Positions 2,733 through 8,955 of a DNA stretch of 8,955 nt are shown here, piece after piece. The notes beneath the pieces are model-generated. The model made no database searches. It was given only the letters and a program-made list of their open reading frames with translations, and had not been told where the DNA came from. How positions within the stretch are numbered: position 1 is the first letter of the stretch; each line of letters opens with the position of its first letter. This DNA comes from a virus. Its lineage: Duplodnaviria > Heunggongvirae > Uroviricota > Caudoviricetes. The stretch is taken from the IMG/VR virus record IMGVR_UViG_3300029214_000257, positions 1-8,955 of that record; one strand, given 5' to 3'. The position numbers were made by a program, and so were the translations under genes.

Positions 2733-2775
2733 CCCATCAACCCCGCCATTTCGGTTCAAGGTTGATGGGTTTTTT
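2733..2775 (+). terminator. rho-independent terminator downstream of ybjL
   Basis: CCCATCAACC (2733-2742) pairs with GGTTGATGGG (2760-2769), then TTTTTT (2770-2775). About 113 nt after the ybjL stop. Confidence 0.5.
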
Positions 2776-2833
2776 GTTGCCTGAAATTTATGCTATTTAA
2801 AATCATGATGTTAGAAGCACTGTTTTTTAACGA

Positions 2834-2855
2834 TGGCGACAAAATGGCGGCAGCG
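2834..2855. repeat. 22-bp direct repeat copy 1 (candidate attR core): TGGCGACAAAATGGCGGCAGCG
   Basis: Matches 8916-8937 (TGGCGACAAAGTGGCGGCAGCG) at 21 of 22 positions in the same orientation. It ends exactly at the ogr-like stop codon (2856-2858, minus strand). Confidence 0.55.
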
Positions 2856-3074
2856 TCAAAGAGAGAGCTCCACCTGTCCTGATTTCATTGGATGCGGCTG
2901 AACCGGATTTGACTCTTTTGGCGTTGCAATCGAACGAACAAAAGTTTCATGGGTAACAAAAGTATGGCTGCAGTTAATGTTCTGGCACTGGTTGTAACGT
3001 TCTTTGGTCAATGAAGATACCTGAAAACTGCTGCGAGTATGGGCGGCACTTCCACACAGTGGGCAAATCATCAT
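2856..3074 (-). CDS. ogr: Ogr/Delta-family zinc-finger late-gene transcription activator
   Basis: 72-aa product from ATG at 3074 (MMICPLCGSAAH...CQNINCSHTF...). Cys4 spacing and length match P2 Ogr (72 aa, recalled). Lies directly downstream of the D fragment as in P2. The ORF track's 83-aa version starts 11 codons upstream. Confidence 0.75.
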   Translation of the reverse strand: MMICPLCGSAAHTRSSFQVSSLTKERYNQCQNINCSHTFVTHETFVRSIATPKESNPVQPHPMKSGQVELSL

Positions 3075-3164
3075 TTTTCGAGTTCTCCCCATTTTTGCTA
3101 AATTCACAATAATGATACCGCATTATTCCATTTTGCAAACTTAAAAGTTCTCCATTGCGAAGAA

Positions 3165-3605
3165 TCATTCCATTTCGAAATCATCAATCCTCACTTCAAG
3201 CTCCAGACTGGTCGTAAAACCATTATCCGGGCTGACGGTATGAGTCAGAGTCGTAATGGTCCATTCCGCATCATCTATCGGTTGTTTAAAGCCACTAACT
3301 TTCACTGGCATTTCCGTGTAAAGATCTGCCCGCCCTTCCGCCAGTTGTAGCGAGAATGACGCAACGCCGCGTTGCAGGCGTTCCCACTGCATTTTCGCTG
3401 CCCGTTCAGCGTTGCTCCGGTTGGCATAAGTGCGATTAAGTACCAGCACGTTTTCATCCGTACCCACCAGGTAATCGCCCTGCTTCGCTTCCGGCTCTTT
3501 CTTCTGCTTCTTAGTTCTGCGCTTACGCTTCACCGTGGTGCTTTCTTTCTTCGCAGGTTCGCGGGTATGCAACCAGCTGGCAATTACGCCCGTGTAAACG
3601 CCCAA
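3165..3605 (-). pseudogene. C-terminal fragment of P2 gpD-like tail protein (D')
   Basis: Translation (GVYTGVIASWLHTRE...LQRGVASFSLQLAEGRADLY...LELEV...) resembles the C-terminal third of P2 gpD from memory. No ATG start: the frame opens with TTG at 3605 and is open up to 3626. Sits immediately upstream of ogr as in P2. Confidence 0.55.
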
Positions 3606-4062
3606 TCTGTGCCCACTGTTCGGTGGTCAACTTAGGACGGCGTCCACCTACTCTGCCTTTGGCACGAGCTGCAGCCAGCCCTGCCCTGGTACGTTCAACT
3701 ATCAGTTCGCGTTCCATTTCAGCCAGGGCACCCATGACATGAAAAAAGAAACGGCCCATTGGGGTACTGGTATCAATACTGTCAGTCAGGCTTCTGAAAT
3801 TCACACCACGCTGGCGCAACTCTTCTATCAGCGTAACAAGATGCCGCATACTGCGCCCCAACCTGTCCAGCTTCCAGACAACCAGCGTGTCTCCTGCCGA
3901 TAGTGTCCTGAGTAGTTTTTTCAGCCCCGGTCTGTCGGACTTAGTGCCACTGATTTTGTCCTCAAAAATCTGCTCACATCCCGCGCAATTCAGTGCATTA
4001 CGTTGCAAATCGGTGTTCTGGTCATTTGTTGACACGCGTACATAGCCAATAAGCATGATCAT
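3523..4062 (-). pseudogene. truncated Pin/Gin/Hin-family serine DNA invertase (catalytic domain only; C-terminal HTH lost)
   Basis: N-terminal about 156 aa (LIGYVRVSTNDQ...DTLVVWKLDRLGRS...GRFFFHVMGALAEMERE...) closely resembles e14 Pin from memory. Homology stops after ...TEQWAQIGRL near nt 3595 and the frame runs into unrelated sequence before the stop at 3523. Confidence 0.75.
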
Positions 4063-4112
4063 CCCCCTGAATAAAAACCGGAGATGATGCCAGTTAGCTG
4101 TTACCTCTGCAT

Positions 4113-4138
4113 TTTCTTAAACGTTGGTTTGGGAGAAG
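4113..4138. other. candidate gix/hix-like invertase crossover site (TTTTCTTAAACG TT GGTTTGGGAGAA)
   Basis: 26-bp imperfect inverted repeat matching recalled gix/hix sites at about 17 of 26 positions. Located about 50 bp upstream of the invertase start, the usual site-invertase arrangement. Confidence 0.3.
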
Positions 4139-4350
4139 CCAGATATCAGCGTTGAATCTTCAGTCAGATCGGTAAGCAGCCAGATTTCTGGTGCGGTTAA
4201 TAAATGAGGTTGAGCTGGGTTCAGCTTGTTCCGCAGAATCTGCACATTCATGCCAGCACGTTCTGCCAGTTGCACCAGGTTGTGGCGCAATGCGAATGCA
4301 CGACAGGCTTCATCAAAATGTGGATGTTTGGAAACTTGGTAATCAAACAT
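4117..4350 (-). pseudogene. truncated CII-like HTH regulator (186 CII-type N-terminal domain only)
   Basis: 77 aa from ATG 4350 ([45 protein letters not shown]...). Clear HTH, resembles the N-terminus of phage 186 CII from memory. Ends at about 77 aa versus about 169 expected. SD AGAGG 9 nt upstream. Lies downstream of the apl-like gene as in 186. Confidence 0.5.
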
Positions 4351-4382
4351 GGTCAATGCCTCTGATGTATTTCAGAATCGAA

Positions 4383-4604
4383 CTAATTAAGGTTTAGATT
4401 GCATTCTGAAAGCGCATCAACGGTCATGGCTGCTATGTTGATCATCACTTTTTCGCGTTTTTTATCTTTCCGCAGACGGTGACGGATAAGACGTCCATCA
4501 GCCAACATGTCATTGATAGTATCGATGGATAGCCCTGTCAGCTCGCTATAACGTTCAATAGTCACATGAGGCGTGGTAAGAGTGATTGAAATGTTATGTT
4601 TCAT
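4383..4604 (-). CDS. Apl/Cox-like excisionase / lytic-operon first gene (small HTH protein)
   Basis: 73-aa ORF with an AlpA/excisionase-like HTH ([23 protein letters not shown]). Divergent from cI and first gene of the apl-cII-type operon. Confidence 0.5.
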
Positions 4605-4729
4605 GATGCAACATTCCTCGTTTAATGTTGATTAATCAGGACGAATACGGATCGTTTGTATTTTGTGAACATCATAAACATACGATCGCATAATGAAATC
4701 GTCAAGACAAAAGTTCACTTGGAGTGACC
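4605..4729. promoter_or_regulatory. lysis/lysogeny switch region between divergent apl-like and cI-like genes
   Basis: 125-bp AT-rich intergenic region. Minus-strand candidate promoter: -35 TTGACG (4705-4700), 17-bp spacer, -10 TATGTT (4682-4677). GTGAAC (4666-4671) and GTTCAC (4713-4718) form an inverted pair. Palindrome CGATCG at 4683-4688. Confidence 0.4.
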
Positions 4730-5299
4730 ATGAATTTGGAGAAAGGCGGACGAGGCGCTATAGAGCGCATGGTAGAAGCATATGGCTTCAAGACTCGACA
4801 GGCGTTGTGCGATCACTTAGGAATCTCTAAAAGTACTCTCGCCACACGCTATATGCGTGACTCATTCCCTGCTGAATGGGTAATCCAGTGCGCACTTGAA
4901 ACGGGCGCCTCGCTTAACTGGCTCACGACCGGACATGGTTCAAAGCAAACTTCAGGTAATACAAATACTATGGAAGTCGTTAAATATGTATTATCTGATG
5001 GAACCTTGCAGGAAGATGGTTTTTATATTTTCGATAAAGAATTTCTACCATCTACGCTCAAAAATCCGTTTGTAATCACCGATAACAATTCCGTTTTTAT
5101 TTGCGATAAAGAGTTTAACGATATTCGTGACGGCAAATGGGTAATAAGTATTGATGCCGAAGTAACAATCCGCGATATCACTCGTTTACCTGGTGGAAGA
5201 ATCTTAGTTGAAGGTGGAAATAGGGCTTTCGAATGTAAAAAAGAAGAAATCGAAATTATTGGAAAAATTATAACCATAACAGTTAAGTACTTTGAGTAA
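4730..5299 (+). CDS. cI: 186-type CI immunity repressor (N-terminal HTH domain plus C-terminal oligomerisation domain)
   Basis: 189 aa from ATG 4730, with GGAG SD 5 nt upstream (the ORF track starts at an in-frame GTG at 4724). The N-terminal domain (GGRGAIERMVEAYGFKTRQALCDHLGISKSTLATRYMRDSFPAEWVIQCALETGASLNWL) looks like the 186 CI DNA-binding domain. Length matches 186 CI (about 192 aa). Confidence 0.8.
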   Translation: MNLEKGGRGAIERMVEAYGFKTRQALCDHLGISKSTLATRYMRDSFPAEWVIQCALETGASLNWLTTGHGSKQTSGNTNTMEVVKYVLSDGTLQEDGFYIFDKEFLPSTLKNPFVITDNNSVFICDKEFNDIRDGKWVISIDAEVTIRDITRLPGGRILVEGGNRAFECKKEEIEIIGKIITITVKYFE

Positions 5300-5349
5300 T
5301 ATAGGAATGTTTTTATGCTTGGTAAAGCATTTGTTGTGGTGTAAAAAAT

Positions 5350-6273
5350 ATGTCAACTCAAAAATTAAAATTTAGCCATATCAAAAACGATCTGAAAGCA
5401 ATAGTCATGCAGAATCGTGGAGGGCAAAAAGTTATTGAGCGTATACTCCTAGCCTATGGCTTCAAGTCACGACAGGCATTATGTAATCATCTAGGTATTT
5501 CCCAAAGTACTATGGCCAACAGATATGCACGTAATACCTTTCCTGCAGATTGGGTTGTTATATGTTCCATAGAAACAGGAGCATCAATTGAATGGTTAGT
5601 TCTTGGTTCAGATACTGCTCCTTCATCAGAGCAATATTCTGAAAAACATGCCGTTAATGGCCTTTGCAATGAAGTATACATTCCCACTATAAAGTTCGAT
5701 AATGAAAAACTCATGAATTTTAACCGAGGAGGTAAGGCAACAATAGAACGAATTGTCGAGGCTTACGGTTACAAAACGCGCCAAGCATTAGCTGATCACC
5801 TAGGTATTTCAAAAAGCACATTAGCCACACGATACATGCGTGACATTTTTCCTGCAGACTGGGTTTTGCAGTGTGCAATAGAAACGGGCCATTCTATTGA
5901 ATGGATTTCATTTGGTACAGGAGAAATGAAAAACGCAAAAAATAAAGATACTTTAACATTAGTGAAAAAAGTATTAATCAATGGCAAGTTAATAAATGAT
6001 GGCTCATATTTATTTGACCCATGTTTTCTACCTTCCAATTTAAAAAATGCATTCGTAGTATCTACCGAAGGCTCTGAATTAATATGTGAAATGGGTTTTA
6101 AAGATGTACATGATGGTAAGTGGCTAGTAAATATTGATGGAGAGAATTCATTTAGAATGATAACTCGACTACCTAAAGGACGAGTTTATATTTCATCCAA
6201 AAATCACTCTTTTGAATGTTCGCTTACAGACATTGAGTTTATTGCAAAAGTTATTATAAGTTGTTTACATTAA
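5350..6273 (+). CDS. CI-repressor paralogue with tandemly duplicated N-terminal HTH domain plus CI-like C-terminal domain
   Basis: 307-aa ORF. Residues about 24-86 and 127-189 are two copies of the CI N-terminal domain (copy 2 is about 75% identical to the adjacent cI N-terminal domain). Residues about 200-307 parallel the cI C-terminal domain (VVKYVLSDGTL...DGKW in cI versus LVKKVLINGKL...DGKW here). Alternative start at M20 (5407). Confidence 0.75.
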   Translation: MSTQKLKFSHIKNDLKAIVMQNRGGQKVIERILLAYGFKSRQALCNHLGISQSTMANRYARNTFPADWVVICSIETGASIEWLVLGSDTAPSSEQYSEKHAVNGLCNEVYIPTIKFDNEKLMNFNRGGKATIERIVEAYGYKTRQALADHLGISKSTLATRYMRDIFPADWVLQCAIETGHSIEWISFGTGEMKNAKNKDTLTLVKKVLINGKLINDGSYLFDPCFLPSNLKNAFVVSTEGSELICEMGFKDVHDGKWLVNIDGENSFRMITRLPKGRVYISSKNHSFECSLTDIEFIAKVIISCLH

Positions 6274-6298
6274 GTAAATTTTTCATGGAGACTTCATA

Positions 6299-7816
6299 GT
6301 GAAATGTGGTGATTGTAATTGGAACTGGGATGAAGAAACTACCTTTATATTAGACGACGAAGAGGAAATTCTCTCCAAAGACAAACTTAATCGGAGACAC
6401 TATGCAGAATATCTATATTTTTATCTTAAGGAAAAGGGGCAAAAGAACAATACGGTAATCAACCTTAATGCAGAATGGGGAGCTGGTAAAAGTTTTTTCA
6501 TAAAGAGATTTTATAACTCAATAAAAGATGCACACCCATGCGTTTACATTGATGCCTGGAAGCAAGACTTTTCTGATGATGCATTTTTAACCCTTTTTTC
6601 TTCTTTGTCACAACAATTGCAAACATATGCAGGAAAACTTGATGCTCGATTGATACAAAGCGGCCATGCTATCGGACGCTTTACAAAAGGTGTTCTACCT
6701 GAAATCATATCTGGCCTAATCAAGACTTATGCAGGAGTAGATAACGTAGGTGATATAGCCAAAGAAGCCTCATTAATAATGCTGAAGGAACACCAGGAAA
6801 AACTGAAGAGCATTAAGGTATTAAAAAAAGAACTTACGTTATGGTCTAGGTTGGCATATGAAAATAGTTTTTCATGTCCTATATTTATCTTTATAGATGA
6901 ATTAGACAGATGCAGGCCAGATTATGCAATTTCTCTTTTAGAGATTGTTAAACATATATTCGATATTAAAAATTTTGTCTTTATTATTGCTACTGACACA
7001 GATCAATTACAACATTCAATCAAGAATGTTTACGGTAATGATTTTTCCGCAAATGACTATTTAGGCCGTTTTTTTCATAGAAGATTTACTTTAAAACAAC
7101 CTGAACTTAAAGATTTAATTAATGGTGTTGTTGGTGATTATATTGGTACCGAGTTTGAAAATATCACATCAAAAACATACCCACTAACCGCAACATTAGA
7201 AGACTTTTCAATAAATATTTCCAACGTATTTGAAGCATTTGGGTTAAATCTAAGAGACTCAATCCGAAATACTGAAAGGTTAATAGACATTCTTAAATCT
7301 GATTTAGTCAAAAAGAAAGTAGATTATATTTTTATAATTTCGCTAATGATTATATATGATAAGGATCGTCAAATTATAGATGGACTAATTGGTCGAAGAA
7401 ATGCAGCACAACGTTTCACTGATTCGATAAAGCAAAGCTCCAATTTAAAAGGTGTTTCTCAAGCCATCCTTGAATTAAATCTTGATACAAATCAGCAAAG
7501 AATAGGTGTCAATTATATCTATACAACGGCGAACAGTAGATTATTCATCTCACAGATCGAACCCAAAATAAGTTTAACATTAATAAATTACTTAGATGTT
7601 GCATTGTATTTTATCAATAATATAAACATACTTAAATCAAGTATAAAAAACAATGGGCAAAATTCACTAATGATTAAATCTAAACAAGGCCCTATTGATG
7701 GTGATACAGCTATAAAGTATTTGCAAGGAGCCCTTATAGAGAATGGACTGAATACATCTTTTTATGCCTTACATAATTACATTGAATTAATTGAACTGGC
7801 CACATCATTTGATTAA
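6299..7816 (+). CDS. KAP-family P-loop NTPase (PifA-like)
   Basis: 505-aa ORF with GTG start at 6299 and GGAG 9 nt upstream. Walker A EWGAGKS (G61-S65, nt 6479-6493). KAP-type Walker B IFIDELDRC (D200-C205, nt 6896-6913). Very AT-rich coding sequence. Starts 25 bp after the 307-aa ORF, so probably co-transcribed. Confidence 0.85.
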   Translation: MKCGDCNWNWDEETTFILDDEEEILSKDKLNRRHYAEYLYFYLKEKGQKNNTVINLNAEWGAGKSFFIKRFYNSIKDAHPCVYIDAWKQDFSDDAFLTLFSSLSQQLQTYAGKLDARLIQSGHAIGRFTKGVLPEIISGLIKTYAGVDNVGDIAKEASLIMLKEHQEKLKSIKVLKKELTLWSRLAYENSFSCPIFIFIDELDRCRPDYAISLLEIVKHIFDIKNFVFIIATDTDQLQHSIKNVYGNDFSANDYLGRFFHRRFTLKQPELKDLINGVVGDYIGTEFENITSKTYPLTATLEDFSINISNVFEAFGLNLRDSIRNTERLIDILKSDLVKKKVDYIFIISLMIIYDKDRQIIDGLIGRRNAAQRFTDSIKQSSNLKGVSQAILELNLDTNQQRIGVNYIYTTANSRLFISQIEPKISLTLINYLDVALYFINNINILKSSIKNNGQNSLMIKSKQGPIDGDTAIKYLQGALIENGLNTSFYALHNYIELIELATSFD

Positions 7817-7877
7817 AAGCATTGTTTGAATAAACTAAACCATACATTGACCACTGGTCAAACATACAGTTAAATTT

Positions 7878-7902
7878 AGCCCTCTGATATGAGGGCTTTA
7901 TT
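7878..7902 (+). terminator. stem-loop AGCCCTC-tgatat-GAGGGCT followed by TTTATT; terminator for the cargo operon and/or structure occluding the int ribosome-binding site
   Basis: 7-bp GC stem, about 60 nt after the KAP stop. The 3' arm GAGGG doubles as the int Shine-Dalgarno sequence, 7 nt upstream of ATG 7903. Confidence 0.4.
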
Positions 7903-8955
7903 ATGGCAGTACGAAAACTCACCACAGGAAAATGGCTTTGCGAATGTTACCCCGCCGGACGTAGTGGGCGTCGGGTGCGTAAACAATTCGCCACCAAAGG
8001 CGAAGCTCTGGCTTTTGAGCGCCACACGATGGAAGAAACCGAAGCAAAGCCCTGGCTGGGTGAATCAGTGGATCGTCGAACACTGAAAGACGTGGTTGAG
8101 CTATGGTTCAAACTACATGGTAAATCTCTGACAGCTGGGCAGCATGTCTATGACAAATTGCTGTTGATGGTTGACGCTCTGGGCAATCCTCTTGCAACCG
8201 ATCTCACCTCTAAAATGTTTGCCCACTATCGAGATAAACGCCTGACAGGCGAGATCTACTTCAGCGAGAAATGGAAGAAAGGAGCAAGCCCGGTCACCAT
8301 TAACCTGGAGCAAAGCTATCTAAGTAGTGTTTTTAGCGAACTATCCCGTCTGGGCGAATGGTCGTATCCGAACCCACTGGAGAACATGCGAAAATTCACC
8401 ATCGCAGAAAAAGAGATGGCATGGCTTACCCATGAGCAGATTGTTGAATTGCTGGCTGATTGCAAACGTCAGGACCCAATTCTGGCACTGGTAGTTAAGA
8501 TATGCTTAAGCACAGGCGCACGCTGGCGTGAAGCCGTAAATCTTACCCGCTCACAGGTGACCAAATACCGAATTACCTTTGTCAGAACGAAGGGGAAGAA
8601 AAACAGAAGCATCCCTATAAGTAAAGAGCTTTACGAAGAGATCATGGCGCTTGATGGGTTCAATTTCTTTACAGACTGCTATTTTCAATTTTTATCCGTG
8701 ATGGAAAAAACGTCTATCGTGCTCCCTCGCGGTCAACTCACACACGTTCTGCGCCATACGTTTGCGGCGCACTTCATGATGTCGGGTGGAAACATTCTGG
8801 CCTTACAAAAAATTCTCGGACACCACGATATAAAAATGACTATGCGTTACGCACATCTGGCACCGGATCATCTGGAAACGGCGCTCCGTTTCAATCCTCT
8901 GGCAACGCTGCCAAGTGGCGACAAAGTGGCGGCAGCGGTTGGCATTACCCCGTAA
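7903..8955 (+). CDS. int: P2-type tyrosine integrase
   Basis: 350 aa, alignable by eye with P2 Int (recalled): ICLSTGARWREA (Arg box), TFVRTKGKKNRSIPIS, HVLRHTFAAHFMMSGGNILALQKILGH, MRYAHL (catalytic Tyr). The 3' end overlaps the second 22-bp repeat. Confidence 0.9.
   Translation: MAVRKLTTGKWLCECYPAGRSGRRVRKQFATKGEALAFERHTMEETEAKPWLGESVDRRTLKDVVELWFKLHGKSLTAGQHVYDKLLLMVDALGNPLATDLTSKMFAHYRDKRLTGEIYFSEKWKKGASPVTINLEQSYLSSVFSELSRLGEWSYPNPLENMRKFTIAEKEMAWLTHEQIVELLADCKRQDPILALVVKICLSTGARWREAVNLTRSQVTKYRITFVRTKGKKNRSIPISKELYEEIMALDGFNFFTDCYFQFLSVMEKTSIVLPRGQLTHVLRHTFAAHFMMSGGNILALQKILGHHDIKMTMRYAHLAPDHLETALRFNPLATLPSGDKVAAAVGITP
8916..8937. repeat. 22-bp direct repeat copy 2 (candidate attL core): TGGCGACAAAGTGGCGGCAGCG
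   Basis: 21 of 22 identical to 2834-2855. Lies inside the last 14 codons of int, so the final 6 int codons (8938-8955) fall outside the repeat-bounded element. Confidence 0.55.

What the first reader, a model, noticed from the sequence alone, without database searches (positions are those of the whole stretch)
4950..7860. Sharp compositional break: AT-rich block from the middle of cI to the int-proximal hairpin
Hand-counted sample lines give about 25% G+C inside the KAP gene (6961-7020) against about 62% in ybjL (1501-1560). The AT-rich tract begins inside cI, roughly at the boundary between its N-terminal HTH domain and C-terminal domain, and ends just before int, which is again ordinary in composition. 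That implies the cargo came from a low-GC donor and was joined inside cI, possibly by recombination within the conserved HTH-coding region.
Basis: seen in the sequence. Interest (0 to 1): 0.45.

Follow-up and report, generated by a model that had tools for sequence, protein, structure and literature searches.

The report
AT-rich cargo slot in prophage
The AT-rich stretch is real; it is the swappable accessory-gene slot between the repressor and integrase genes of a phage-186-like prophage, here carrying a second hybrid repressor and a candidate anti-phage ATPase, and it is a resident feature of this phage family, not a recent import from a low-GC organism.

Summary
Observation confirmed. G+C is 0.33 in 4950-7860 against 0.48 on both sides. 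Maximum-likelihood steps fall at 4935 and 7905, far beyond block-permutation controls.

The window holds a roughly 6-kb remnant of a 186/P2-like prophage next to ybjL: cI1, then cI2, a KAP NTPase and int, all in one orientation.

The same profile recurs in most of 29 related prophages from about 25 Enterobacterales species: normal G+C in the cI N-terminal half, low G+C in the C-terminal half and slot, normal G+C in int. The slot cargo differs between them and includes PD-Lambda-1, PDC-S20 KAP, PDC-M11, PDC-M18, HEC-01 and many unknowns.

Between phages with different cargo, nucleotide homology ends at cI codons 65-72 (window 4928) and resumes about 60 bp before int. The repressor's C-terminal domain therefore travels with the cargo.

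Against its nearest E. coli relatives, this cargo is joined at 5340/5341, inside a 9-codon remnant of a small ORF, and near 7900. cI2 is itself a chimera, with a crossover at 5820-5860 in the conserved HTH motif.

KAP orthologues occupy the same slot in Klebsiella, Enterobacter and Serratia at the same low G+C, with saturated synonymous divergence. No low-GC donor is indicated. This is an ordinary prophage hotspot with some new details.

The parts
2765..2791 (.). 27-bp att core copy at the ybjL-proximal end of the prophage remnant
   Evidence: Identical 27 bp lie just beyond int in the intact E2348/69 prophage, L001 13431-13457.
4605..4729 (.). Divergent regulatory region between the apl-like gene and cI1, the equivalent of pR/pL in phage 186
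   Evidence: It lies between divergent apl-like (4383-4604, minus strand) and cI1. Promoter-like sites occur on both strands. The layout matches the 186 annotation. About 95% identical to cargo-free E. coli prophages.
4730..4934 (+). cI1 N-terminal HTH half: normal G+C, serving as a conserved recombination anchor
   Evidence: PF07022 at 3e-33. G+C 0.50, GC3 0.49. Residues 1-50 are on average 75% identical between phages with different cargo, and 94-100% identical in several such pairs. Homology with L018 ends at 4928.
4935..5299 (+). cI1 C-terminal (oligomerisation) half: AT-rich, of the type linked to the ydcA-like cargo
   Evidence: PF16452 at 7e-27. G+C 0.33, GC3 0.28. Nearest C-terminal domains are those of ydcA-type prophages, 84% amino-acid identity. 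81-86% nucleotide identity to them, against 94-95% for the N-terminal half.
5315..5344 (+). Remnant of the small ydcA-like ORF (first 9 codons, MLGKAFVVV, then a stop). The left junction of the cI2-KAP cassette lies at 5340/5341.
   Evidence: Alignment with L002 4715-4744 (MLGKVFFVVL...). From 5342 the sequence matches the start of Klebsiella phage 4LV2017 cI.
5350..6273 (+). cI2: a 307-aa CI-type protein with two HTH domains and one C-terminal domain, chimeric in origin
   Evidence: PF07022 twice and PF16452. 5340-5859 is 78-93% identical to the 4LV2017 primary repressor gene. From 5820 onward the sequence is 75-82% identical to the Klebsiella cI-KAP-int locus L006. No full-length relative above 62% identity exists outside its own cluster.
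5820..5860 (+). Crossover inside cI2, in the conserved TRYMRDIFPADW coding stretch of HTH2
   Evidence: Sliding identity switches from the 4LV2017 type to the L006 type here. The cI of L015 has its crossover at the same motif, codon 50/51.
6299..7816 (+). KAP-family P-loop NTPase, 505 aa, a candidate single-gene anti-phage defence (PADLOC PDC-S20)
   Evidence: PF07693 at 1.7e-45. PDC-S20 at 6e-78, PifA at 1e-16, QatA at 7e-14. Walker A reads AEWGAGKS and Walker B reads FIFIDE. dN/dS is 0.08 against the Klebsiella orthologue. The best solved-fold matches are RdrA of RADAR.
7841..7876 (+). Conserved element before int: promoter-like TTGACC-18-TAAATT overlapping an inverted repeat ACTGG/ACAGT (ACTGT in the family consensus). 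Homology between cassettes resumes here.
   Evidence: Conserved in 24 aligned loci. blastn homology with L002, L004, L010 and L018 restarts at 7837-7842.
7878..7897 (+). G+C-rich hairpin with a T run immediately before the int ATG. It marks the right edge of the AT-rich tract and is of the KAP-lineage type.
   Evidence: Terminator-like site. A hairpin is predicted at this place in all 30 loci, with different stem sequences. The right G+C step has a median position of -24 from the int ATG. 7881-7900 matches L006 at 17/20 against L002 at 10/20.
7903..8955 (+). Tyrosine integrase (runs to the window end): normal G+C, of the same type as the cargo-free E. coli prophages and 4LV2017
   Evidence: PF24624 and PF00589. 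96% nucleotide identity to L002 and L004, against 77% to L006.

Best explanation
The AT-rich tract is the exchangeable part of the lysogeny operon of a 186-like (Peduoviridae) prophage. It covers everything between the conserved N-terminal HTH-coding half of cI and a conserved promoter-like and hairpin element just before int.

In this phage family two flanks act as homologous anchors. Recombination between related phages swaps what lies between them: the cI C-terminal domain together with one to three accessory genes, many of them anti-phage defence genes. This swapped material is AT-rich in most family members examined and stays so over long divergence. The G+C step inside cI therefore marks a module boundary. 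It is not the scar of a recent foreign import.

The window holds two such modules in tandem. The first is the cI1 C-terminal half plus a 9-codon stump of a ydcA-like ORF. The second is cI2 plus KAP, added at 5340/5341 and ending near 7900. cI2 is itself a recombinant, between a double-HTH repressor of the Klebsiella phage 4LV2017 type and the ordinary cI of a cI-KAP-int phage.

Inferred, not shown: the genes are co-transcribed with cI1 from the lysogenic promoter in the lysogen. The KAP NTPase would act as an NTP-dependent sensor or switch that aborts or blocks infection by other phages. cI2 would add a second repressor specificity.
For: The step is real.

The same architecture holds in 29 loci from about 25 species. 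G+C is 0.44-0.49 in the cI N-terminal half, 0.29-0.43 in the C-terminal half, 0.29-0.41 in the slot and 0.45-0.53 in int. All cargo is co-oriented with cI and int. The left step has a median position of cI codon 73. The right step has a median of -24 from the int ATG.

Slot cargo differs between loci and includes validated or candidate defence systems: PD-Lambda-1, PDC-S20, PDC-M11, PDC-M18 and HEC-01.

The C-terminal domain tracks the cargo. It is 70% identical in same-cargo pairs and 36% in different-cargo pairs. Residues 1-50 are 88% and 75% identical in the same two groups.

Homology breakpoints fall at cI codons 65-72 in three independent pairs, including window 4928. Crossovers lie in the RYMRD-FPA-W motif in cI2 and in L015.

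Where the C-terminal domain is shared across different cargo (L020/L021, L022/L025), homology runs to the cI 3' end. There the domain has more nearly normal G+C (0.37-0.43) and the step sits at the end of cI. In phage 186 the slot is empty and the C-terminal half has normal G+C of 0.44.

The junctions of this cassette are shown.

KAP orthologues lie in the same slot in Klebsiella, Enterobacter and Serratia with G+C 0.33. dS is 1.6 and dN/dS is 0.08.

A cI-to-int hotspot has been described for K139-like P2-related phages (PMC9122126). An integrase-to-primase hotspot has been described in P2-like prophages (PMC13586616).
Against: No experiment shows that this KAP protein or cI2 protects against any phage. 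PDC-S20 is only a candidate family, and no paper on it was found.

The survey covers 29 loci, many of them related, so the counts are not independent.

The G+C of the C-terminal domain does not correlate with the G+C of the slot (rho 0.07).

In 5 of the 29 loci the best single step lies left of cI, in the apl/cII region.

What keeps the module AT-rich was not established.

Transcription from pL through the cargo is inferred from gene order and from phage 186. It was not measured. The promoter scan shows no excess over shuffled sequence.
Confidence: 0.8

Rival explanations
1. One reading: the block is recently acquired DNA from a low-GC donor, joined to the prophage by a crossover inside cI1.
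For: The step lies inside cI1 at the domain boundary. The cI1 C-terminal half is more diverged from cargo-free relatives than the N-terminal half (dS 0.62 against 0.24; 81-86% against 94-95% nucleotide identity).
Against: Cargo-free relatives have the same step. Their homology with the window continues to 5340, with a ydcA-like ORF stump there. The C-terminal half is 3-5 times more diverged than the N-terminal half among cargo-free alleles as well. All KAP and cI2 relatives that carry an organism name are gammaproteobacterial (Enterobacterales for cI2), and the KAP orthologues examined lie in the same slot. Low G+C persists at saturated dS. Matches in Fusobacterium cover only about 105 bp of the Walker B region, and the protein is 29% identical.
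Confidence: 0.04
2. The low G+C is maintained by selection on the DNA or RNA itself, and history is secondary. Possible forces are H-NS-type silencing or tuning of cargo expression, low translation through rare codons, or DNA flexibility for wrapping around the CI oligomer and its flanking operator.
For: The composition is stable across hosts of 50-57% G+C although synonymous sites are saturated, so some force maintains it. In phage 186 a CI-binding site (FL) lies inside cI near codon 90. The window has an inverted repeat at 4952-4998 and a sequence at 4951-4965 that is complementary to part of the pR-like region.
Against: Phage 186 and the Brenneria/Yersinia lineages function with a cI C-terminal half closer to normal G+C. 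The step position follows the recombination boundary, not a fixed protein position. No binding data are available. This rival is compatible with the best explanation as a contributing cause.
Confidence: 0.25
3. cI2 and KAP form one two-gene system. The repressor-like protein would be the sensor or regulator, for example a decoy for anti-repressors of invading phages or a DNA-bound trigger. KAP would be the effector.
For: The two genes are adjacent with a 25-nt gap and are inherited together in 17 E. coli genomes. In all KAP-lineage phages examined the gene just upstream of KAP ends in the matching cI C-terminal domain. Both genes are under purifying selection.
Against: In Klebsiella, Enterobacter and Serratia the upstream gene is simply the phage's only cI. 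Physical linkage to the module therefore explains the association. KAP homologues of the same PADLOC family occur with other neighbours (L022, L030). PDC-S20 is catalogued as a single-gene candidate.
Confidence: 0.1
4. The step is a chance fluctuation or an artefact of hand counting.
Against: The log-likelihood gain is 94.6, against a maximum of 33.9 in block permutations. Mann-Whitney p = 9e-18.
Confidence: 0.01

Closest known systems
Anti-phage hotspots of P2-like prophages and relatives. Rousset et al. [quoted passage not shown] The 2026 NAR survey (PMC13586616) reports 8% of P2 defence systems between integrase and primase.
   Same: A fixed position between conserved phage genes carries different cargo in related prophages, including known defence systems. 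The slot is the same, cI to int.
   Different: The left boundary usually lies inside the repressor gene, so the repressor's C-terminal domain is exchanged together with the cargo. The papers read here describe cargo lying between whole core genes. They do not mention base composition or the KAP cassette.
Phage 186 lysogenic operon (pL, then cI, then int; NC_001317)
   Same: Same gene order and orientation. Same CI domain architecture (PF07022 plus PF16452). Divergent apl/cII side.
   Different: In 186 the cI stop overlaps the int start, so there is no slot. The cI C-terminal half has normal G+C: 0.44, GC3 0.43.
KAP-family NTPases in defence: PADLOC candidate PDC-S20, PifA of the F plasmid, QatA of QatABCD, RdrA of RADAR, and 'Reve' from a P4 hotspot (PMC13586616)
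   Same: PF07693 domain with intact Walker A and B motifs. HMM matches to PDC-S20 at 6e-78, PifA at 1e-16 and QatA at 7e-14. The best solved-fold matches are RdrA rings.
   Different: Only the NTPase core matches PifA, QatA and RdrA (TM-score 0.38 or less). No partner genes of Qat or RADAR are present. No recognisable effector domain. No predicted membrane helices. The relation to Reve could not be tested because no sequence was available.
Primary repressor of Klebsiella phage 4LV2017 (KY271398): a 313-aa CI with two HTH domains
   Same: cI2 residues 1-170 are 79% identical at nucleotide level. The recognition-helix stretch GISKSTLATRYMRDIFPADW of HTH2 is identical, and that of HTH1 differs at one residue (N/D). 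Homology starts 8 bp before the ATG.
   Different: In 4LV2017 this is the phage's only repressor and sits beside its operators. In the window it is a second repressor gene, lies downstream of cI1 without that regulatory region, and has a different C-terminal domain.
Modular exchange in temperate phages at conserved sequences at module boundaries (lambdoid phage mosaicism). Cited from general knowledge, not tested here.
   Same: Recombinant joints recur at short conserved stretches that flank diverged modules.
   Different: Here the joint lies within a single gene, between the DNA-binding and oligomerisation domains of the repressor.

Membership tests
Prophage accessory/defence hotspot (cI-int slot of P2/186-like phages) | Conserved phage genes flank the position in related elements | tested here: met
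   The order cI (N-terminal half), slot, int was found in 29 loci from about 25 species.
Prophage accessory/defence hotspot (cI-int slot of P2/186-like phages) | Unrelated cargo at the same position in related elements | tested here: met
   At least 12 cargo types, in slots of 395-3286 bp.
Prophage accessory/defence hotspot (cI-int slot of P2/186-like phages) | Known defence systems among the cargo | tested here: met
   PD-Lambda-1 in 7 loci. Candidate families PDC-S20, PDC-M11, PDC-M18 and HEC-01 in others.
Prophage accessory/defence hotspot (cI-int slot of P2/186-like phages) | The cargo of this window protects against phage infection | not testable with these tools
   Needs plaque assays.
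KAP family P-loop NTPase (Pfam PF07693) | Match to the family profile above the curated cut-off | tested here: met
   156 bits against a cut-off of 20, E = 1.7e-45, residues 32-303.
KAP family P-loop NTPase (Pfam PF07693) | Intact Walker A and Walker B motifs | tested here: met
   A58-EWGAG-K64-S65 and F196-IFIDE. G61, G63, K64 and D200-E201 are invariant in 48 homologues.
KAP family P-loop NTPase (Pfam PF07693) | Transmembrane helices inserted in the NTPase domain (common in the family, not universal; from general knowledge) | tested here: not met
   The highest 19-residue Kyte-Doolittle mean is 1.43, below the usual threshold of 1.6. The insert at residues 95-188 is predicted as amphipathic helices with low confidence.
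PADLOC PDC-S20 (candidate single-gene defence) | Match to a PDC-S20 profile | tested here: met
   PDLC04959 at 6.2e-78, covering residues 20-389.
PADLOC PDC-S20 (candidate single-gene defence) | Demonstrated anti-phage activity | not testable with these tools
   No paper mentions PDC-S20 in the library searched.
Phage 186-type CI repressor | N-terminal PF07022 HTH domain plus C-terminal PF16452 domain | tested here: met
   cI1: 3e-33 and 7e-27. cI2: 3.8e-56 (two HTH stretches) and 6.7e-25.
Phage 186-type CI repressor | The gene sits beside the divergent lytic/lysogenic promoter region, opposite apl/cII | tested here: met
   Met for cI1 (4730, next to apl-like 4383-4604 on the minus strand). 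Not met for cI2, which lies downstream of cI1.
Phage 186-type CI repressor | Binds operators and maintains lysogeny or immunity | not testable with these tools
   The operator search was inconclusive.
RADAR (RdrA/RdrB), QatABCD, PifA | Partner genes (RdrB deaminase; QatB, QatC, QatD) or full-length similarity (PifA, 720-residue profile) | tested here: not met
   No such genes occur in the slot. The matches cover only the NTPase core.

The most novel reading that the evidence does not exclude
The oligomerisation domain of CI-type repressors in 186-like phages is a hypervariable unit that moves together with defence cargo because the two work together. In this window, cI2 would be a repressor-like sensor or decoy and the KAP NTPase would monitor it. 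Attack on repressors by an invading phage's anti-repressor, or arrival of its operators, would then trigger the NTPase. A weaker version of the same idea: cI2 is a captured repressor from a phage of different immunity type, used purely to extend superinfection immunity to a second phage group.
Probability: 0.12. Interest if true: 0.75.

Novelty: new member of a known kind. Interest (0 to 1): 0.36.

Why it matters
The finding shows how to read a sharp G+C step inside a phage repressor gene. It marks the edge of a swappable module, not a foreign insertion.

In practice, the slot from mid-cI to int in 186-like prophages is a compact, easily located place to look for new anti-phage genes. Ten of the slot proteins sampled here match no Pfam family, and at most weak partial matches to PADLOC models.

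Because the repressor's C-terminal domain is exchanged with the cargo, phages with near-identical DNA-binding domains can carry very different oligomerisation domains. This bears on immunity, on repressors of different phages assembling together, and on sensitivity to anti-repressors.

The tandem, chimeric second repressor is an unusual arrangement that could be tested directly in the well-studied strain E2348/69.

Tried and rejected
1. Low-GC donor. Searches of phage, plasmid and E. coli collections with the block found it only in 17 E. coli genomes. Elsewhere only short Walker B matches appeared.

2. Breakpoint inside cI1 for this cargo. Elevated dS in the C-terminal half looked supportive at first. 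The same excess exists among cargo-free alleles, so it is not specific to this cargo.

3. Correlation between the GC3 of the C-terminal domain and the G+C of the slot: none, rho 0.07.

4. Sequence search of solved structures with the KAP profile: no hit. The fold search gave only NTPase-core matches with low TM-scores.

5. Operator hunting in 4590-4740 and 4350-5400 gave only weak repeats. No conclusion about cI2 targets was possible.

6. Literature on PDC-S20: nothing found. The sequence of the KAP-type 'Reve' system is not held, so homology to it is untested. Two malformed paper queries were wasted.

7. A formal pair count on the pre-int hairpin was not run, because the MAFFT alignment puts divergent stems out of register. 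Per-sequence folds were used instead.

8. Pfam and PADLOC gave no Pfam family and at most weak partial PADLOC matches for ten unknown slot proteins.


Full report
**Observation.** The compositional break is real and strong. G+C is 0.331 in 4950-7860, 0.482 to the left and 0.483 to the right. An unconstrained two-breakpoint likelihood search puts the steps at 4935 and 7905, with a log-likelihood gain of 94.8. Forty permutations of 100-nt blocks never exceeded 33.9. The drop is largely synonymous. GC3 falls from 0.49 in the first 80 codons of cI to 0.28 in the rest. It is 0.25 in the next two genes and 0.51 in int. The tract is not uniform: G+C returns to about 0.40 at 5400-5900.

**Anatomy.** The window starts with the E. 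coli genes grxA, ybjM and ybjL. After these comes a roughly 6-kb remnant of a P2/186-like prophage:
- ogr-like gene (2856-3107, minus strand)
- a gpD fragment (3165-3605, minus strand)
- a resolvase/invertase fragment (3523-4062, minus strand)
- a truncated cII (4117-4356, minus strand)
- an apl-like gene (4383-4604, minus strand)
- on the plus strand, cI1 (4730-5299), a second CI-type gene cI2 (5350-6273, two HTH domains and one C-terminal domain), a KAP-family NTPase (6299-7816) and a tyrosine integrase (7903 to the window end)

The same cI1-cI2-KAP-int block occurs at 99-100% identity in 17 of 5426 complete E. coli genomes. One of these is EPEC E2348/69, where it is part of a complete prophage between ybjL and rcdA. 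A 27-bp att core is shared by the two prophage ends.

**Where this cargo is joined.** About 630 E. coli genomes carry a closely related prophage at the same chromosomal site. In them, cI is followed by a 63-codon ydcA-like ORF and then int. Their homology with the window runs from 4136 to 5340 and resumes at 7841. At 5315-5341 the window still has the first nine codons of that small ORF, followed by a stop. From 5342 it matches the start of another phage's repressor gene. On the right, the hairpin at 7881-7900 is of the KAP-lineage type. From 7901 the sequence is of the same type as the cargo-free prophages. Relative to its nearest relatives, the added cassette is therefore 5341 to about 7900, not a block starting inside cI1. 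The cargo-free cI genes show the same G+C step, 0.48-0.50 then 0.32-0.35. The step is not a consequence of this cargo's arrival.

**cI2 is a chimera.** Window 5340-5859 is 78-93% identical to the only repressor gene of Klebsiella phage 4LV2017, a 313-residue CI with two HTH domains. From about 5820 onward the best match switches. Through the rest of cI2, KAP and int, it is 75-82% identical to a Klebsiella prophage whose lysogeny operon is simply cI-KAP-int. The crossover lies in the conserved TRYMRDIFPADW coding stretch of the second HTH. An E. coli prophage cI (L015) has a crossover at the same motif, codon 50/51. No full-length relative of cI2 above 62% identity exists outside its own cluster.

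**No low-GC donor.** All of the 120 best KAP homologues that carry an organism name are from Enterobacterales, Pseudoalteromonas, Aeromonas and related gammaproteobacteria. Orthologues at 79% (Klebsiella), 63% (Enterobacter) and 52% (Serratia) identity lie in exactly the same place, between cI and int of 186-like prophages. Their G+C is 0.33, in phages that are otherwise 0.50-0.53. Between the window and the Klebsiella orthologue, synonymous sites are saturated (dS 1.6). dN/dS is 0.08 and both copies keep the same low G+C. The composition is thus a long-standing equilibrium within this phage lineage. Phage, plasmid and E. coli searches found the block nowhere else. Matches in Fusobacterium cover only about 105 bp of the Walker B region.

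**Family-level picture.** A scan of one genome per species returned 27 loci. With the loci already in hand, 29 could be analysed. All show cI, then a slot of 395-3286 bp holding one to three co-oriented ORFs, then int. G+C is 0.44-0.49 in the cI N-terminal half, 0.29-0.43 in the C-terminal half, 0.29-0.41 in the slot and 0.45-0.53 in int. The left step has a median position of cI codon 73 and falls between codons 55 and 120 in 19 of the 29 loci. The right step has a median of 24 bp before the int ATG.

The slot cargo differs widely:
- PD-Lambda-1 in seven loci
- PDC-S20 KAP proteins in seven, counting the window
- PDC-M11, PDC-M18 and HEC-01 pairs
- the small ydcA-like ORF
- many proteins with no Pfam family and at most weak partial PADLOC matches

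This is a defence or accessory hotspot. A cI-to-int hotspot was described for K139-like Vibrio phages (PMC9122126). A recent survey places 8% of P2 defence systems between integrase and primase (PMC13586616).

**Why the step is inside cI.** The first 50 residues of CI are highly conserved across phages with different cargo. The mean is 75% identity, and several cross-species pairs reach 94-100%. The C-terminal domains of the same pairs average 36%. Phages with the same cargo have C-terminal domains averaging 70% identity.

Nucleotide homology between phages with different cargo ends at cI codons 65-72. Two other pairs break at codons 72 and 65.

Where the C-terminal domain is shared by phages with different cargo (Yersinia L020/L021, Brenneria L022/L025), homology runs to the cI 3' end. 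The domain there has more nearly normal G+C (0.37-0.43) and the step sits at the end of cI. In phage 186 the cI stop overlaps the int start, so there is no slot, and the C-terminal half has G+C 0.44. The G+C step therefore follows the boundary of the exchanged module. It is not imposed by the protein fold.

It does not describe how this cargo joined cI1.

**Function (inferred).** By analogy with phage 186, where cI and int are transcribed together from pL, the co-oriented cI2 and KAP genes are probably expressed in the lysogen. This was not measured.

The KAP protein has intact Walker A and B motifs and no predicted membrane helix. The structure model is confident (mean pLDDT 81). Its best solved-fold relatives are the ring-forming RdrA ATPases of the RADAR defence system, but only over the NTPase core (TM-score 0.38 or less). 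It matches the PADLOC candidate PDC-S20 strongly and PifA and QatA weakly.

The most likely role is an NTP-dependent sensor or switch that blocks or aborts infection by other phages. I put this at about 0.55. The effector step is unknown.

cI2 keeps the HTH2 recognition-helix stretch of the 4LV2017 repressor unchanged, and the HTH1 stretch differs at one residue. The HTH2 helix is also shared with cI1. cI2 probably binds DNA. It might extend immunity to a second phage type, or it might be a passenger of the recombination that brought KAP. Its two halves show dN/dS of 0.15-0.18 against their respective relatives.

**Right boundary.** All loci share a conserved element before int: ACATTGACCACTGT, a spacer, ATACAGTTAAAT. 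It is promoter-like (TTGACC-18-TAAATT) and overlaps an inverted repeat. A G+C-rich hairpin, a T run and the int ATG follow. The stems differ in sequence between lineages but always pair. The 3' arm contains a GAGGG that could be the int ribosome-binding site. One reading is that read-through from the cargo terminates here, while transcripts started at the conserved promoter lack the 5' arm and are translated. This is speculation.

**Verdict.** The feature is a member of a known kind, a prophage accessory/defence hotspot, carrying a catalogued candidate defence gene. Three details appear new:
- the exchange unit includes the repressor's oligomerisation domain
- crossovers recur in the conserved HTH-coding segment
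- this lineage carries a tandem, chimeric second repressor

Noticed in passing
window 7841-7902; same position in L002, L004, L006, L008, L010, L017-L040: A conserved promoter-like and inverted-repeat element (ACATTGACCACTGT...ATACAGTTAAAT) is followed by a hairpin, a T run and the int ATG. The stem sequence differs between lineages but always pairs. GAGGG in the 3' arm could be the int ribosome-binding site. It may be an insulator or translational control for int.
   Followed up: partly
window 2765-4356: The prophage is a remnant. cII is cut to 79 of 169 codons, only the last ~146 codons of gpD remain, and a resolvase/invertase ORF (3523-4062) overlaps the gpD fragment and has lost its normal C-terminus. 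In E2348/69 the same lysogeny module belongs to a complete prophage (L001). The lysogeny and cargo genes have thus survived decay of the rest.
   Followed up: partly
window 4951-4998 and 4655-4669: An inverted repeat, TCAGGTAATACAAAT / ATATGTATTATCTGA, sits exactly at the G+C step inside cI1. 4951-4965 is also complementary to part of the pR-like region about 290 bp away. This recalls the FL CI-binding site that lies inside cI of phage 186. The repeats are short and could be chance.
   Followed up: no
L018 6574-7761, L019 6625-7881, L020 6594-8030, L021 6598-9063, L033 6567-8226, L004 4953-6609, L035 6533-7831, L037 6576-7565, L038 6590-8071: These slot proteins of 200-490 residues have no strong PADLOC match. 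The ten of them scanned against Pfam had no match. All lie in the same cI-int position where known defence systems sit in sister phages, which makes them plausible new defence candidates. L033 and phage 4LV2017 share one such two-gene cargo.
   Followed up: partly
L016 (MAG labelled Bacillota) and L026 (MAG labelled Pseudopedobacter saltans): These are short contigs that encode Enterobacterales-type cI; L016 also carries an int 99% identical to the window's. The contigs are probably misassigned to those metagenome-assembled genomes. They are not evidence of the phage in such hosts.
   Followed up: no
L006 7878-9100, L007 4394-5091: In the Klebsiella prophage, a SocA/Panacea-domain gene and a 249-codon ORF lie between int and the host TetR-family gene. 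This fits the minor 'integrase to att site' hotspot mentioned in PMC13586616.
   Followed up: no
L015 1367-1936 (E. coli CP015912): This cI is a natural chimera. Codons 1-50 and the apl side are of the Klebsiella/Enterobacter type (87-90% nucleotide identity in the last bins before the joint). From codon 51 on it is the E. coli ydcA type (100% identity in the next bin).
   Followed up: yes
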